Positions 50,388 to 55,328 of a DNA stretch of 64,000 bases are shown in pieces. This DNA is from an uncultured delta proteobacterium (lineage in GTDB: Bacteria; Desulfobacterota; Desulfobulbia; Desulfobulbales; BM004). Each line of letters opens with the position of its first letter. Within the stretch, counting starts at the first letter, position 1. Location: assembly GCA_963783905.1 (NCBI GenBank), contig CAWAPG010000002.1, positions 65,032 through 129,031 of the forward strand, written 5' to 3'. Under the pieces are notes generated by a model that saw nothing but the letters and a program-made list of their open reading frames with translations, made no database searches and was not told the DNA's origin. The position numbers and the translations under genes are program-made.

Positions 50388-50685
50388 GGTGATCTCCTTT
50401 TACTTTTAATTATAAATTTACTTTGTAGTGTAGCTTACTTGTCATAGATTTACATGGGAATTATTCATTTTTGATCTAAGAACATAGAAAGTATACAGGA
50501 TGGGTGGTTAAGAATGAAAATTAAATTAGTTGTAGTTTTTGTTGGTAGACTCTGGGGAAAACTACAGAGATGAGGCGAAACTTACCAGGTCTCCCCATGG
50601 AAAATGACAGCTTTCAATCAAAAACGTGTAACATTCCTGAAATATCTATGCACGCATCAGACATACTGACACAAAAAACAAAGGA

Positions 50686-50790
50686 TCTCCCACCTCAGGA
50701 AGGGGCCTTTGTTTTTTGTGCCGATATAATAACCGGTCAGATATCTTGAAGCTTTAAGAATCATACACAAGTCAATTATCTTTTTGTTAC
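50686..50790 (-). repeat. copy A of a ~100-bp repeated element (58-bp core 50733-50790 plus spacer and hairpin)
   Basis: The reverse complement of 50733-50790 matches 53684-53741 at 55 of 58 positions. The adjacent spacer is similar, and the hairpin-like GGATCTCCCACCTCAGGAAGGGGCC lies at 50683-50707. Confidence 0.85.
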
Positions 50791-50829
50791 GTGTAGAGAG
50801 CAGCTATACGTAACAAAAGTTGCTTTTCC

Positions 50830-51741
50830 TTAACAGATTAATTCCCCCTGTGCTTGGTCTTGAATGTATTTAGTATTACTGTGAAAAGAATTTTCTGCTT
50901 TGGCAAGTTCCCGACCGAGGTAAGCTGCGTGATCCATTTGCGAAACTAATTGCATGTTTAAAATTGTTGAACAAATTGTTGGAGCGTCTTTGCCCTCGAT
51001 GATATGTAATAGCCGCCCATTATTTTTATAATGCTCGACATAAAGAGGATTTTCATGTCCTTTCCTGACTAAAATAATGAAATAACCTTCACGATCCAAT
51101 TGCAGTCGTTTAGCAGGCTCTGCCTTGATGATGTTAACAAGACGAACATAAAGACCATGTTCGTATGGGGCAGATTCGATAGAATCCAACAATTGAATTT
51201 CTTTTTTCAGATTATCTATATCGGTGTAATGCAATAAATTATGGATCGTTATCTGCTTTCTGAATTGTGCTATTTCTTGTGCTAACGTATTTCTAAGAAT
51301 GGGACGGGCTCCTGATGCATCAACAATTCTTTGCTTTTTGTTGATTCCTTTTTTCTGCAAGTTGATTATCGCATCACCTGGGCGATGGCCGCTAACTTCT
51401 TTACCGATTATAACAAGATGACGAATAAAGGGGTTGCTGATCAGATTTTTTAAAACATATTCAACTCCTATATTTTCTGTAGTCAAATTGCCTATGATTG
51501 CAATATTTTTGAGAAGGGCAAAAAAGGGTCTTTCGATAATGTGGGAATCTCCCAAAGAGAGTATGGCAATTGAGGCTGTCGGGTTCAAAACTGCATAGTC
51601 CCCAGGCTGGACAGGCCAAAAATCAGGGGTAAACTCTTGAGGAGAGGTTGTGGTCATATTGATGGGCTCAATTGCAGATTCCTCCATCGAATTCAACATG
51701 TCCATTGTTTCATTGTAGGTATTGAATGCCGGAACTGGCAA
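50830..51741 (-). CDS. MtrA-like (tetrahydromethanopterin S-methyltransferase subunit A homolog) protein fused to DUF4346; N-terminal boundary unresolved
   Basis: WPVQPGDYAVLNP...IAILSLG...IAIIGNLTTENIGVEYVLKNLISNPFIRHLVIIGKEVSGHRPGDAI follows the MtrA pattern. The C-terminal YFIILV...VEHY segment is DUF4346-like. The ORF-track start is a TTG without SD, and it is in frame with the upstream ORF across one TGA. Confidence 0.75.
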   Translation of the reverse strand: MPVPAFNTYNETMDMLNSMEESAIEPINMTTTSPQEFTPDFWPVQPGDYAVLNPTASIAILSLGDSHIIERPFFALLKNIAIIGNLTTENIGVEYVLKNLISNPFIRHLVIIGKEVSGHRPGDAIINLQKKGINKKQRIVDASGARPILRNTLAQEIAQFRKQITIHNLLHYTDIDNLKKEIQLLDSIESAPYEHGLYVRLVNIIKAEPAKRLQLDREGYFIILVRKGHENPLYVEHYKNNGRLLHIIEGKDAPTICSTILNMQLVSQMDHAAYLGRELAKAENSFHSNTKYIQDQAQGELIC

Positions 51742-51762
51742 ACATGGTTTACAACCCAGTCA
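51723..51762 (-). other. in-frame UGA followed by SECIS-like hairpin (candidate selenocysteine insertion site)
   Basis: The TGA codon is at 51762-51760. The hairpin UGCC-AGUUCC-GGCA (51740-51727) is extendable to 51744-51723 across a UU/UU internal loop. The apical loop begins 24 nt after the UGA and has G at loop position 2. Confidence 0.35.
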
Positions 51763-52017
51763 TTGATGCAGATCAATTTCCCCCGCATCTTCAATCCACT
51801 GCGAAAAGTCTCTTTCAGCAGCGGTGAGTCCGTTATCAACCTTCTTGCTGAGGCTTACCTCTTGAATTGTATCCAAGATTGAGGCCATCATATCTGCGTG
51901 GAAACACGAACAAGTGCGGCATCGCTCATGCTGCATGATCTTTACAAATTCACGATGCACTTTTTTTATGGCTATGATTTTTTCATCCAGAATTTTCATT
52001 ACCTTTCCTACTAACAT
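51760..52017 (-). CDS. small Cys-containing hypothetical protein (or N-terminal part of a TGA-read-through fusion with the MtrA-like ORF)
   Basis: The likely start is ATG 51999 after AGGAAAGG (MKILDEKI...). It contains CRTCSCFH and ends ...EIDLHQ-TGA in the same frame as the next ORF. Confidence 0.5.
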   Translation of the reverse strand: MLVGKVMKILDEKIIAIKKVHREFVKIMQHERCRTCSCFHADMMASILDTIQEVSLSKKVDNGLTAAERDFSQWIEDAGEIDLHQ

Positions 52018-52514
52018 ATCAACGGGTATACTTTCCAGAGGGCTGGTCGATTAAAGATGTTTACTGATTATCTTTAGTCTTGGGATTGTGTTCTATTAAC
52101 GATGTCTATCTTTTGTGACTTGTAAAATATTTCTGAATTTTTAAAGGGTTCACTGGACATCTAAAGTGAACACTGATAAGGAAATAAGGGATAAAAATTG
52201 GTGGCTTCACCGGTGGCTTTAAAATCCGATAGGCTGTCTGTTGGAAACAGAGGGTTTGTTGCACACTAATAATGACATTTCATGGCTAGTTCAGTTAATA
52301 TAAGATCTTGGTATCAAGATAGCTACAAAAAGGCCGATTGATCTCCGTTTCCAGGCAACAGAGAATGGCAATCTGGTTCAGTATGATGCACATCTCGTGT
52401 GGGCTCGGGTGAACGATGACGGGACCATGGATTACGGCAAGAAATATACACGAAATTAACCAGATAATATCATATTAATATTTTTATAATATCACTAAAT
52501 TTTAATTCGTCCGC

Positions 52515-53095
52515 ATTTAAAGGTTTAAACCCCCGCCTTTTAGGCGGGTAGCTTTAAGCTAGCTGTTGAATTATACTTTCTGGCATGGAATACCGACAGA
52601 GTAGTCACACCAAGTACAAAATAGAATATCATTTTGTATGGGTAACCAAATATCGTTATCATATGCTTCAAGGCGACTTGGCAGATCGAGTTCGTGATCT
52701 TGTTCGTCAAACCTGTGAGTATTTTGAAATTCAGATATTGCGAGGTGTTGTAAGTAAAGATCATGTTCATATCTTGGTTTCTGCCCCGCCGAATATGTCT
52801 CCATCTGACATAATGAAAAGGGTGAAAGGGCGAACATCTCGGAAGATATTTGAAGAGTTTCCTCATGTAAAGAAGCGTTATTGGGGCCGTCATTTTTGGG
52901 CACGAGGCTACTTTTGCGTAACAGCCGGTGAACTTACCAAGGTAATGATAAAGGAATATCTCGCTCATCATTTTGAACGTGATCCCAATGATGGATTTGA
53001 GGTTGAGCCTTAAACCGGCTGCGTGAGCCTGCCGGTATTGCTGGACTTTAAGTCCGCGCTGTTAAACCCACCTACTTCAAGTAGGTGGTTGTTTA
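52515..53095 (+). mobile_element. IS200/IS605-family insertion sequence (IS200-type, tnpA only); ends approximate
   Basis: A Y1 transposase gene is flanked by subterminal hairpins: CCCGCCT-TTT-AGGCGGG at 52532-52548 on the left and CCACCTAC-TTCAA-GTAGGTGG at 53068-53088 on the right. A TTAAACCC motif lies next to both. Confidence 0.7.
52585..53013 (+). CDS. tnpA: IS200/IS605 family Y1 transposase TnpA
   Basis: YHFVWVTKYRY, the HUH motif DHVHILV, and the catalytic Tyr region WARGYF. Confidence 0.95.
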   Translation: MEYRQSSHTKYKIEYHFVWVTKYRYHMLQGDLADRVRDLVRQTCEYFEIQILRGVVSKDHVHILVSAPPNMSPSDIMKRVKGRTSRKIFEEFPHVKKRYWGRHFWARGYFCVTAGELTKVMIKEYLAHHFERDPNDGFEVEP

Positions 53096-54893: not shown

Positions 54894-55328
54894 ATGGAGG
54901 TAGAAATAGTGAAAAAGTACTTAGTAATAGCAGCTTTGGTCGGAATTCTAAGTTTCGCGAGTGTTTCCATGGTAAGTGCGCGTGGAAACCATGGCCATGG
55001 TCATGGTATGGGTTATGGATATGGTGATGATTGCGGATATTGTAACAACTGGTCTTATGATGGTCAGGATAAAGAGAAGGTGGACACTTTTCTTAAAGAA
55101 ACGCAAGAAACCAGAAAACAACTTGCGGTCAAAAGAAGTGAACGGAGAGCTTTGATGAGTCAGGATAATCCTGATGAAAAGAAAGTAGGCAAACTGACTG
55201 GTGAAATCTTTGATCTGAAAAATCTGTTGGATGAAAAAGCAAAAGGGGCTTTTGGTGATAATCCTCCTTTTCGCCATAAAGGTTCCAGGGGAGGATTTGG
55301 TAACTGTGGTAGAGGACCACGCAATTGA
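54894..55328 (+). CDS. periplasmic Spy/CpxP/ZraP-family protein with His/Gly-rich metal-binding N-terminus
   Basis: Signal peptide, GNHGHGHGMGYGYGDDCGYC, then LTxxQ-type helical region (KQLAVKRSERRALMSQDNPDEKKVGKLTGEIFDLK). Confidence 0.65.
   Translation: MEVEIVKKYLVIAALVGILSFASVSMVSARGNHGHGHGMGYGYGDDCGYCNNWSYDGQDKEKVDTFLKETQETRKQLAVKRSERRALMSQDNPDEKKVGKLTGEIFDLKNLLDEKAKGAFGDNPPFRHKGSRGGFGNCGRGPRN

What the first reader, a model, noticed from the sequence alone, without database searches (positions are those of the whole stretch)
50830..52017. In-frame TGA joins a small Cys-rich ORF to the MtrA-like/DUF4346 ORF: candidate U-x-x-C selenoprotein with SECIS-like hairpin
On the minus strand the 79/85-aa ORF (good SD at ATG 51999, contains CRTCSCFH) ends ...EIDLHQ at a TGA (51762-51760). 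The MtrA-like ORF continues in the same reading frame. Read-through gives ...HQ-U-L-G-C-K-P-C-L-P-V-P-A-F..., a Sec-x-x-Cys(-x-x-Cys) redox-type motif. The downstream ORF has no credible initiation signal of its own: the ORF-track start is a TTG at 51741 with no Shine-Dalgarno, and the first in-frame ATG is at 51705, also without one. The MtrA-homologous part only begins about 40 codons later. From 20 to 33 nt after the UGA the mRNA can form UGCC-AGUUCC-GGCA (51740-51727), extended by U-A and G-C pairs across a UU/UU internal loop (51744-51723). The apical loop has G at position 2, and its distance from the UGA is within the range reported for bacterial SECIS elements. Deltaproteobacterial anaerobes are among the most selenoprotein-rich bacteria. 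A read-through product would be about 389 aa: a Cys/Sec-rich N-terminal module fused to a corrinoid-protein-like MtrA domain and DUF4346. I am not aware of this family being described as a selenoprotein.
Basis: partly seen in the sequence, partly recalled or inferred. Interest (0 to 1): 0.75.

Follow-up and report, generated by a model that had tools for sequence, protein, structure and literature searches.

The report
New selenoprotein: MtrA-like corrinoid protein
The apparent stop codon that splits this gene in two most likely encodes selenocysteine, so a widespread vitamin-B12-type protein of unknown function is a previously uncatalogued selenoprotein that annotators routinely cut in half.

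Summary
On the minus strand, an 85-aa Cys-rich ORF ends at TGA 51762-51760. It is in frame, with no gap, with the MtrA/DUF4346 ORF.

- **Codon at this position:** 53 other loci (20 species-representative genomes, 33 metagenome contigs; a few are the same or near-identical contigs) also carry TGA, never TAA or TAG. 79 loci carry TGT or TGC. Over 2,600 full-length (~390 aa) relatives exist; in all 56 aligned, Cys fills this column as the first Cys of an invariant CxxCxxC.
- **Nearby Cys form:** one TGT gene (P0017) is 92% nucleotide-identical to a TGA gene.
- **Hairpin:** UGCC(R)-GUUC-(C)GGCA lies 23-24 nt after the UGA and fits the published bacterial SECIS model. Its stem never varies in 42 distinct sequences, including three synonymous sites. 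Other four-fold sites in the gene vary freely, and so does this region in Cys forms.
- **Not shown:** stem covariation, Sec machinery (absent from the 64 kb) and selenium incorporation.
- **Novelty:** the family is missing from a 2026 catalogue of prokaryotic selenoproteins and from NCBIfam's selenoprotein models.
- **Function:** unknown. Many relatives sit beside ArsR-type regulators, and Cys forms also beside MerC, thioredoxin and CcdA genes.

The parts
50830..51999 (-). Proposed single selenoprotein gene of 389 codons plus stop. An alternative upstream ATG at 52017 would give 395 codons. Residue numbers in the other parts use the 395-residue frame.
   Evidence: Continuous frame across the TGA. 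The 390-position NCBIfam model NF002128 aligns to residues 13-392. tblastn matches in related loci span residues ~5-395. Homologs start at the position of ATG 51999 (MKILDEK / MDVREEK).
52002..52009 (-). Shine-Dalgarno-like AGGAAAGG ahead of ATG 51999.
   Evidence: Read directly from the sequence.
51904..51921 (-). First Cys motif, C-R-T-C-S-C (residues 33-38).
   Evidence: All three Cys are invariant in 56 of 56 full-length homologs.
51760..51762 (-). In-frame TGA, the proposed selenocysteine codon (residue 86). The next base is C.
   Evidence: TGA in 53 other loci and TGT/TGC in 79; never TAA or TAG. Aligned to an invariant Cys.
51742..51762 (-). U-L-G-C-K-P-C, a Sec-x-x-Cys-x-x-Cys motif.
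   Evidence: The Cys forms read C-L-G-C-E-V-C.
51723..51744 (-). SECIS-like hairpin. The core stem is UGCC/GGCA (51740-51737 with 51730-51727) and the loop is AGUUCC. The lower pairs are U-A and G-C. The loop begins 23 nt after the UGA.
   Evidence: Fold. Stem positions are invariant in 42 distinct homologous sequences. Synonymous-site constraint is confined to this hairpin. The constraint is absent in Cys forms. The stem is broken in the TGT relative.
51163..51624 (-). MtrA-like corrinoid-binding domain (residues 132-285), including the conserved Gly-His at 51390-51385 (His211).
   Evidence: Pfam PF04208, 118.8 bits. PDB 5LAA matches at E = 4e-27 with the GH motif aligned. The model of homolog P0017 matches 5L8X and 5LAA at TM 0.87. 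His211 is invariant.
50857..51099 (-). PterinBD-DUF4346 C-terminal domain (residues 307-387).
   Evidence: Pfam PF14251, 78 bits.
50833..50835 (-). C-terminal Cys (…GELIC), the last codon before the stop.
   Evidence: This column is Cys in 75 of 79 aligned homologs.
50781..50819 (.). Inverted repeat with a 16-bp stem directly after the TAA stop (50832-50830). It is probably a terminator.

Best explanation
The two ORFs are one gene, 51999 (or 52017) to 50830 on the minus strand. It encodes a ~389-aa selenoprotein.

**Decoding (inferred).** UGA 51762-51760 is read as selenocysteine by the standard bacterial route. The hairpin 23 nt downstream (UGCC-AGUUCC-GGCA, with a G-U start to the loop) would act as a SECIS element. 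It would bind SelB carrying Sec-tRNA(Sec) while the ribosome sits on the UGA. That UGA is in the weak UGA-C termination context.

**Protein layout.** The product has four parts:
- a helical N-terminal module with six invariant Cys positions (CxxCxC ... UxxCxxC), Sec being the first residue of the second motif;
- an MtrA-type corrinoid-binding domain that keeps the Gly-His motif, in which the His ligates cobalt in archaeal MtrA;
- a DUF4346 domain;
- a conserved C-terminal Cys.

**Role of Sec (inferred).** Sec sits in what looks like a cofactor- or metal-dependent redox centre serving the corrinoid. It is either a ligand or redox partner of an Fe-S or metal site, or a selenolate that receives or hands on a methyl group or a thiophilic metal.

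**Shown versus inferred.**
- Shown: the single conserved reading frame, the Sec/Cys pair, exclusive use of TGA, and RNA-level constraint on the hairpin.
- Inferred: SelB-dependent Sec insertion and the chemistry of the Cys/Sec module.
For: 1. **One reading frame.** NF002128 (390 positions) aligns to residues 13-392 across the TGA. tblastn matches in 68 genomes run through the site without a frame change.
2. **Sec/Cys pair.** P0017 (387 aa, 52% identical) has LDLHK-C-MGCRPCLPVP aligned at the TGA. 44 genome loci and 35 metagenome loci carry TGT or TGC there. That Cys is invariant in 56 of 56 full-length homologs, out of a family of more than 2,652 proteins of ~380-410 aa.
3. **TGA only.** 20 species-representative genomes and 33 metagenome contigs carry TGA at this codon, at 43-87% amino-acid identity to the window. 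None carries TAA or TAG.
4. **No conserved restart.** The codon after the TGA is CTG in most loci.
5. **Hairpin fits the bSECIS model** of PMC13188914. The loop is 4-6 nt with G then U. The upper stem is 4-5 bp. The spacing is 23-24 nt. The 66-nt MFE is -11.1 or lower in 42 of 42 sequences.
6. **RNA-level selection.**
   - Of 29 four-fold sites in conserved codons, only Pro+10 (CCG, 19/19) and Ala+11 (GCA, 18/19) are constrained (0.0 and 0.3 bits).
   - The next lowest are Val+9 and Pro+8, which are also in the hairpin. All the other sites score 1.2-2.0 bits.
   - With 42 distinct sequences, G24, G33 and A36 are 42/42, 42/42 and 41/42.
   - The same region in 42 Cys forms is unconstrained.
7. 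**Broken stem in the Cys form.** L069 (TGT) and L070 (TGA) are 92% nucleotide-identical. The Cys form has CCGACA where the Sec form has CCGGCA, which breaks a stem pair.
8. **Standard genetic code.** TGA ends 6 of 19 Pfam-supported genes in the window, never with C as the next base.
Against: - No selA, selB, selD or tRNA-Sec was seen in the 64-kb window. No tRNA-Sec or recognisable selenoprotein gene was seen in the flanks of the 21 related Sec-type loci examined. Sec decoding in this genome is therefore assumed from its Desulfobacterota-type relatives.
- No compensatory base changes support the hairpin, because its stem never varies.
- The isolated 36-nt hairpin folds at -7.3 kcal/mol, just short of the model's -7.5, and 9 of 200 shuffles fold as well.
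- The conserved peptide LPVPA constrains 10 of the 14 core nucleotides by itself.
- There is no experimental evidence of selenium incorporation.
Confidence: 0.9

Rival explanations
1. The TGA is an ordinary stop. The 79/85-aa Cys-rich protein and the ~300-aa MtrA/DUF4346 protein are made separately, by reinitiation or translational coupling, and then associate.
For: Every public gene call examined in this clade splits the locus, for example P0242 (85 aa) plus P0001 (291 aa), and the 94-aa and 308-aa genes abutting in L070. A sigma-70-like match overlaps the hairpin at 51741-51712, but the number of such matches in the region equals the chance expectation.
Against: - The break would fall inside an invariant CxxCxxC motif that is continuous in 79 loci and in every full-length protein aligned.
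- Only TGA is ever used, in 54 loci including the window.
- The two parts are always in the same frame with zero spacing.
- No start codon or Shine-Dalgarno motif is conserved downstream; the next codon is mostly CTG.
- A split would not explain the synonymous-site constraint on the hairpin.
Confidence: 0.04
2. The UGA is recoded as a sense codon, but not to selenocysteine. Cys could be delivered by a tRNA-Sec-like Cys tRNA through SelB and the same hairpin. Alternatively, a near-cognate tRNA (Trp, Cys or Arg) could read through the weak UGA-C context.
For: The UGA-C context is present in 38 of 42 distinct sequences. The machinery could not be inspected. From my own knowledge, tRNA-Sec-like tRNAs that insert Cys at UGA have been described in some anaerobes (Mukai et al. 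2016).
Against: - A genome able to encode Cys directly has no evident reason to keep a UGA and a constrained hairpin across 54 lineages.
- When Cys is used, as in P0017, the codon is TGT and the hairpin decays.
- Desulfobacterota are the most selenoprotein-rich bacteria.
Confidence: 0.04
3. The TGA is a sequencing or assembly error, or a recent nonsense mutation in a decaying gene.
For: The window comes from a metagenome-type assembly, and an IS200-family transposase gene lies just upstream.
Against: The same TGA occurs in 53 independent loci, with both flanks under protein-level conservation.
Confidence: 0.01

Closest known systems
Bacterial selenoprotein genes with an in-ORF SECIS element (archetype: E. 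coli fdhF; consensus bSECIS model of Zhang and Gladyshev as summarised in PMC13188914)
   Same: An in-frame UGA aligned to Cys in homologs. A stem-loop shortly downstream inside the coding sequence. A small apical loop beginning G-U. A 23-24 nt spacing, within the 16-37 nt range. The organisms are Desulfobacterota-type, a Sec-rich group.
   Different: The protein family itself is not among the families in Table 1 of the 2026 review. It has no selenoprotein-specific NCBIfam model. The hairpin's upper stem is short (4-5 bp). Sec machinery and selenium incorporation are unverified here.
Cys-form DUF4346/MtrA-like proteins (NCBIfam NF002128, PRK00964.1-6; e.g. P0121 of Methylomonas, Dechloromonas sp. 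ARDL1, Candidatus Tenderia electrophaga)
   Same: Same four-part architecture and length (~390 aa). Same six invariant N-terminal Cys positions, the same Gly-His motif and the same C-terminal Cys. An ArsR-type regulator is a frequent neighbour in both forms.
   Different: ~30% identity. The window scores 255 bits against a cutoff of 568. Cys replaces Sec. The residues after the motif read WPAVAQN rather than LPVPAF. There is no conserved hairpin. Extra CGC tails are present. The Cys forms sit in MerC-gene-thioredoxin-CcdA clusters that were not seen next to the Sec forms.
Archaeal MtrA, the corrinoid subunit of the Na+-pumping methyl-H4MPT:CoM methyltransferase (PDB 5L8X, 5LAA, 8Q3V, 9QTQ)
   Same: The corrinoid-binding domain matches in sequence (E = 4e-27) and in fold (TM 0.87). 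The TENxGxE and Gly-His motifs are conserved.
   Different: There are no mtrB-H neighbours. The C-terminal membrane helix is replaced by DUF4346. An N-terminal Cys/Sec module is added. TIGR01111 scores 113 bits against a cutoff of 249. The organisms are bacteria that are not methanogens.
Glycine reductase selenoprotein B (GrdB) and proline reductase PrdB
   Same: They share a U-x-x-C-x-x-C motif, as cited in PMC13188914.
   Different: No sequence or domain relationship: the Pfam scan gave no GrdB hit. The cofactors and the chemistry differ.
HgcA/HgcB mercury-methylation corrinoid system
   Same: It is a corrinoid protein with known selenoprotein variants (Table 1 of PMC13188914). hgcAB is reported to be under an ArsR-like regulator (bioRxiv 10.1101/2022.10.17.512643, listed). 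Cys-rich partners are thought to handle a thiophilic metal.
   Different: The corrinoid-binding fold is unrelated (CFeSP type versus MtrA type). Cobalt ligation is Cys-on versus the His expected here. No methylation activity is known for the present family. The resemblance is one of architecture and context only.

Membership tests
Bacterial selenoprotein gene (Sec-UGA plus bSECIS) | An in-frame UGA inside a continuously conserved coding region | tested here: met
   homology runs across the TGA in one frame with no gap.
Bacterial selenoprotein gene (Sec-UGA plus bSECIS) | Homologs with Cys (TGT/TGC) aligned to the UGA | tested here: met
   79 loci carry TGT/TGC, and the Cys is invariant in 56 of 56 full-length proteins.
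Bacterial selenoprotein gene (Sec-UGA plus bSECIS) | The UGA, not UAA or UAG, is conserved among orthologs | tested here: met
   TGA in 53 other loci, and no TAA or TAG.
Bacterial selenoprotein gene (Sec-UGA plus bSECIS) | bSECIS geometry: 3-9 nt apical loop, 4-16 bp upper stem, G in the first two loop positions followed by G or U, and 16-37 nt from the UGA to the loop (PMC13188914 Fig. 2 legend) | tested here: met
   The window has a 4-bp stem, loop AGUUCC and a 23-nt spacing. Most homologs have a 5-bp stem, loop GUUC and a 24-nt spacing.
Bacterial selenoprotein gene (Sec-UGA plus bSECIS) | bSECIS minimum free energy of -7.5 kcal/mol or lower | tested here: inconclusive
   The window's isolated 36-nt segment gives -7.3. 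Its 66 nt from the UGA give -11.3. All 42 distinct homologs give -11.1 or lower over 66 nt. The result depends on which segment the criterion is applied to.
Bacterial selenoprotein gene (Sec-UGA plus bSECIS) | The hairpin is under selection as RNA | tested here: met
   Synonymous-site constraint is confined to the hairpin. It is absent in Cys forms. The stem is broken in the TGT relative. The covariation test itself is uninformative because the stem is invariant.
Bacterial selenoprotein gene (Sec-UGA plus bSECIS) | selA, selB, selC (tRNA-Sec) and selD in the same genome | not testable with these tools
   Only 64 kb are available. The window holds no tRNA and no sel gene among the 20 largest ORFs scanned. 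The source contig could not be retrieved.
Bacterial selenoprotein gene (Sec-UGA plus bSECIS) | Selenium demonstrated in the polypeptide | not testable with these tools
   This needs 75Se labelling or mass spectrometry.
MtrA (PF04208), corrinoid-binding domain | Sequence and fold of the cobalamin-binding domain, with the conserved His in the Gly-His motif | tested here: met
   (118.8 bits against a cutoff of 25). (5LAA at E = 4e-27, with GH aligned). (TM 0.87 for homolog P0017). That this His ligates cobalt is from my knowledge of Wagner et al. 2016; it was not tested here.
MtrA as a subunit of the MtrA-H methyltransferase complex (TIGR01111) | A score above the equivalog cutoff, a C-terminal membrane anchor and mtrB-H neighbours | tested here: not met
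   TIGR01111 scores 113 bits against 249. The C-terminus is DUF4346. The neighbours scanned on either side are Usp and IS200 TnpA, and no neighbour gene other than the ArsR-type regulator is conserved across the Sec-form loci.
NF002128 (PRK00964.1-6), the ~390-aa Cys-form family | A full-length match above the curated cutoff | tested here: not met
   255 bits against 568. The alignment does cover 380 residues, and the architecture and invariant residues are shared. The window's protein is therefore a divergent sister clade, not an equivalog.
GrdB/PrdB UxxCxxC selenoproteins | Homology to PF07355 / TIGR04483 | tested here: not met
   No such hit in the Pfam or NCBIfam scans. Only the motif is shared.

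The most novel reading that the evidence does not exclude
The whole family, Sec and Cys forms alike, may be an ArsR/SmtB-controlled, corrinoid-dependent enzyme that acts on a thiophilic metal or metalloid such as Hg, As, Sb, Se or Te. It would transfer a methyl group to or from that element. The six-Cys/Sec module would hold the element next to the cobalt centre. That would make it a second system, independent of HgcAB, linking B12 chemistry to metal(loid) transformation, with Sec marking the reactive ligand.
Probability: 0.15. Interest if true: 0.85.

Novelty: new member of a known kind. Interest (0 to 1): 0.58.

Why it matters
- **Annotation.** It would add a family to the bacterial selenoproteome. 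It would also correct a systematic error: in every public gene call examined for this clade, the gene is split into an ~85-aa orphan and a truncated 'DUF4346 / MtrA' protein.
- **Function.** The Sec position flags the first residue of the CxxCxxC motif as the chemically critical site of a widespread, uncharacterised corrinoid protein family with more than 2,600 members. That gives an entry point for working out what these proteins do.
- **Possible role.** The recurring ArsR, MerC, thioredoxin and CcdA neighbours point towards metal(loid) or thiol-redox biology.
- **Why surveys missed it.** All the Sec forms found come from uncultured MAGs and metagenome contigs. This may explain why surveys based on isolate genomes did not find them.

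Tried and rejected
- **First genome-contig scan.** A scan with the single protein found nothing. The scan with an alignment worked.
- **Covariation.** RNAalifold and pair counting gave no compensatory changes because the stem is invariant. I used a synonymous-site test instead.
- **Rfam.** A permissive search of 50600-52600 gave only chance-level hits.
- **Other selenoprotein genes.**
  - A scan of the window for ORF pairs joined by TGA found no other convincing case.
  - The same scan on the flanks of related loci gave only spurious candidates. The best-looking one, L009 6337-7089, is an ordinary gene with junk upstream.
- **tRNA-Sec.** None in the window or in 22 related loci.
- **Source contig.** Attempts to reach the 312-kb source contig or its taxonomy failed.
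- **Structure prediction.**
  - The Cys loops came out at low confidence, so the model says nothing about the metal site.
  - Foldseek against the PDB matched only the MtrA domain.
- **Literature.** Searches for DUF4346, and for MtrA combined with selenoprotein, MerC or ArsR, found nothing on this family.
- **Internal promoter.** I considered an internal promoter for the downstream ORF and rejected it. The single match at 51741-51712 is within the chance expectation.
Full report
**1. The observation**

- On the minus strand an ORF runs from ATG 52017 to a TGA at 51762-51760. A second ATG at 51999 follows AGGAAAGG.
- The ORF encodes 85 (or 79) residues, including CRTCSCFH, and ends ...EIDLHQ.
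- The next codon is in the frame of the 303-aa ORF that ends at TAA 50832-50830.
- Read-through gives HQ-U-LGCKPCLPVPAF.
- The downstream ORF's only in-frame starts are TTG 51741 and ATG 51705. The deposited protein P0001 (291 aa) uses the ATG.
- Pfam places MtrA at residues 132-285 and PterinBD-DUF4346 at residues 307-387 of the 395-residue read-through.
- The hairpin at 51744-51723 folds as drawn. It gives -7.3 kcal/mol for 36 nt, with z = -2.4, and 9 of 200 shuffles fold as well. On its own it is unremarkable.

**2. One gene or two**

The 390-position NCBIfam model NF002128 aligns to residues 13-392, straight across the TGA.

In a search of 5.8 billion proteins, nearly every close relative is a 285-320-aa protein covering only the C-terminal three quarters of the read-through. 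One is different: P0017, at 387 aa and 52% identity, covers 98%. It has LDLHK-C-MGCRPCLPVP, with Cys exactly at the TGA. Two truncated relatives, P0025 and P0069, start at MGCKPC. In those cases the gene caller started immediately after the stop.

**3. The codon across relatives**

A scan of one genome per species returned 68 loci.

- In 20 of them the aligned codon is TGA. All are Desulfobacterota-type MAGs, although two are labelled Pseudomonadota or Hyphomicrobiales. The context is H-x-*-[LM]-[GD]-C-x-P-C-[LV]-P-V-P-A-[FY].
- In 44 it is TGT or TGC. These are Gamma- and Betaproteobacteria (including Methylomonas methanica, Dechloromonas, Thiobacillus and Accumulibacter), Zetaproteobacteria, Chloroflexota and Nitrospirota.
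- In 4 the site is not covered or was not detected.

A metagenome scan added 33 TGA loci and 35 Cys loci.

TAA and TAG never occur. The N-terminal module is always in the same frame, with no spacer. A few of the loci counted are the same or near-identical contigs.

Relatives of the full-length Cys form number more than 2,652 proteins, and those listed are 380-410 aa long. The six N-terminal cysteines (CxxCxC ... CxxCxxC) are invariant in 56 of 56 aligned full-length sequences. The TGA column is the first Cys of the second motif.

TGA is otherwise an ordinary stop in this window. It ends 6 of 19 Pfam-supported genes, and none of those has C as the following base.

**4. The hairpin**

In all 42 distinct sequences from 55 TGA loci, the 14-nt core UGCC-R-GUN-C-CGGCA lies at +23 to +36 from the U of the UGA. 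A lower UGU/ACA extension flanks it.

- Every stem position is invariant, or nearly so.
- Most sequences form a 5-bp stem with loop GUUC. The window forms a 4-bp stem with loop AGUUCC.
- This satisfies the published bacterial SECIS constraints (PMC13188914, Fig. 2 legend): a 3-9 nt loop, a 4-16 bp upper stem, G in the first two loop positions followed by G or U, and a 16-37 nt spacing.
- The energy criterion is met over 66 nt (-11.1 or lower in 42 of 42). It is missed by 0.2 kcal/mol for the window's isolated 36-mer.

Because the stem never varies, RNAalifold and pair counting show no compensatory changes. I therefore asked whether the invariance goes beyond what the conserved peptide LPVPA demands.

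- Across 19 Sec-form genes there are 29 codon columns with a conserved four-fold-degenerate codon family.
- Third-position entropy in those columns is 1.2-2.0 bits, with four exceptions.
- Two are Pro+10 (CCG in 19/19; 0.0 bits) and Ala+11 (GCA in 18/19; 0.3 bits), which form the 3' arm.
- The other two are Val+9 and Pro+8 (1.1 bits each), in the loop and the 5' arm.
- The third base of the Leu/Val codon at +7 is G in 42 of 42 sequences.
- In 42 distinct Cys-form sequences the same region varies freely, at 1.2-1.9 bits.

A natural experiment agrees. L069 (P0017; TGT) and L070 (P0025; TGA) are 92% nucleotide-identical. The Cys form has CCGACA where the Sec form has CCGGCA. This changes Ala to Thr and breaks a central stem pair.

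**5. What could not be shown**

- The window contains no tRNA gene.
- No sel gene is among its 20 largest ORFs.
- No second candidate selenoprotein turned up in the window.
- The flanks of related loci gave nothing either.
- The rest of the source genome could not be reached.

Sec decoding is therefore inferred. It rests on the comparative signature above and on the fact that Desulfobacterota head the lists of selenoprotein-rich bacteria.

**6. What the protein is**

*MtrA domain.* It matches archaeal MtrA structures in sequence (5LAA, E = 4e-27, with the Gly-His motif aligned). It also matches in fold, using an AlphaFold model of P0017 (mean pLDDT 86.6; TM 0.87 to 5L8X and 5LAA). His211 is invariant. 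From my own knowledge, the equivalent His ligates cobalt in MtrA (Wagner et al. 2016).

*Not a true MtrA.* TIGR01111 and NF002128 both score below their cutoffs. There is no membrane anchor and there are no mtr neighbours.

*N-terminal module.* It is predicted to be helical. The two Cys loops have low confidence, as expected for a site that needs a cofactor. Nothing in the PDB matches this module or DUF4346.

*Genomic context.*
- An ArsR/SmtB regulator with a CVC motif lies nearby in 39 of 70 loci. In the Sec-form loci L001 and L013 it is directly upstream.
- In the Cys-form proteobacterial loci the gene sits between a MerC-like gene (13 loci) and a membrane-anchored thioredoxin gene (18 loci), with a DsbD/CcdA gene close by (19 loci).
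- In the window itself the neighbours are an IS200-family transposase gene upstream and a universal stress protein gene downstream.

*Most likely mechanism.*
- Shown: the gene is one conserved reading frame, with a Sec/Cys pair and a hairpin under RNA-level constraint.
- Inferred: SelB-dependent Sec insertion, directed by that hairpin.
- Inferred: the product is a corrinoid protein whose Cys5-Sec module forms a redox or metal centre.
- Open: whether that centre is an Fe-S cluster that reduces cobalt, or a site that binds a thiophilic metal(loid) or accepts a methyl group.

**7. Comparison with what is known**

The recoding mechanism is the standard bacterial one. The protein family is what is new.

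- Table 1 of a May 2026 review of prokaryotic selenoprotein families has no entry with MtrA, tetrahydromethanopterin, PF04208, PF14251 or NF002128.
- No paper in the library mentions DUF4346.
- NCBIfam release 20 returned no selenoprotein-specific model for this protein.
- The supplementary family list of BSepDB was not available to check.
- The U-x-x-C-x-x-C motif recalls GrdB, but there is no homology.
- The closest analogy by architecture and context is HgcA. It is a corrinoid protein with selenoprotein variants and reported ArsR-like regulation. Its fold is unrelated.

**8. Verdict**

This is a genuine selenoprotein gene with high probability (about 0.9). It is a new member of a known kind and is systematically split by annotators.

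Interest is moderate to high. New bacterial selenoprotein families are still reported regularly, so the discovery type is not surprising. This one, however, marks the reactive residue of a large uncharacterised B12-type protein family with a suggestive metal-related context.

Noticed in passing
L021-L068 (e.g. L067 1007-1399, L034 7143-7550, L037 3607-4338, L051 5582-5971); Sec-form L001 1092-1484 and L013 5162-5593: The family has a conserved gene neighbourhood. An ArsR/SmtB regulator with a CVC motif occurs in 39 of 70 loci. A MerC-like membrane protein gene lies immediately upstream in 13. A membrane-anchored thioredoxin gene lies immediately downstream in 18. A DsbD/CcdA transmembrane protein gene occurs in 19. 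This suggests a metal(loid) or thiol-redox operon built around a corrinoid protein.
   Followed up: partly
L069 1085-2248 versus L070 5534-6745: A Cys (TGT) form sits among the Sec-form sequences: its closest relatives are Sec forms, and it is 92% nucleotide-identical to one of them. It carries a G-to-A change (Ala to Thr) that breaks the hairpin stem. This looks like a recent Sec-to-Cys replacement followed by decay of the SECIS element.
   Followed up: yes
window 52585-53013 (+): An IS200/IS605-family Y1 transposase gene (Pfam Y1_Tnp, E = 8.5e-43) lies about 570 bp upstream of the selenoprotein gene, on the opposite strand. In relatives L001 and L013 an ArsR-type regulator lies directly upstream of the gene. 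The window has none, so the insertion may have displaced it.
   Followed up: no
window 50781-50819: A long inverted repeat with a 16-bp stem lies 11 nt after the gene's stop codon. The scan scores it as a terminator on the plus strand. It probably acts in both directions.
   Followed up: no
window 50833-50835; C-termini of L053, L040 and L031 ORFs: A Cys near the C-terminus (…GELIC in the window) is conserved in 75 of 79 homologs. The proteobacterial Cys forms (seen in L053, L040, L031) add a CGC-containing tail. This could be a seventh functional thiol, reminiscent of the C-terminal Cys pair of HgcB.
   Followed up: partly
window 51759 and the aligned position in 42 distinct Sec-form sequences: The base after the UGA is C in 38 of 42 sequences, which is the weakest bacterial termination context. 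The six genuine TGA stops checked in the window are followed by T, A or G.
   Followed up: partly
L012, L014, L039; L040, L054: One MAG (MFD05684.bin.2.99) carries three near-identical copies of the Sec-form locus on different contigs. Dechloromonas sp. ARDL1 has two apparently identical Cys-form copies about 1.4 Mb apart on its chromosome. These are either duplications or, for the MAG, assembly redundancy.
   Followed up: no
window 54894-55328 (+): This ORF encodes a signal-peptide-bearing protein with a His/Gly-rich stretch (GNHGHGHGMGYGYG). It looks like a ZraP/Spy-type periplasmic metal-stress protein. I did not scan it against any library.
   Followed up: no
A2 columns 2-22 (window 51761-51741): RNAalifold also proposes a weak 5' helix that includes the G and A of the UGA (pairs 2-22, 3-21, 4-20, 7-17, 8-16). 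It shows G-C to G-U changes but no compensatory ones. It could be a lower SECIS stem or simply chance.
   Followed up: no
L001 516-871: A tmRNA gene (tag peptide ANNYDYALAA) lies just upstream of the ArsR-selenoprotein gene pair in the closest species-level relative.
   Followed up: no
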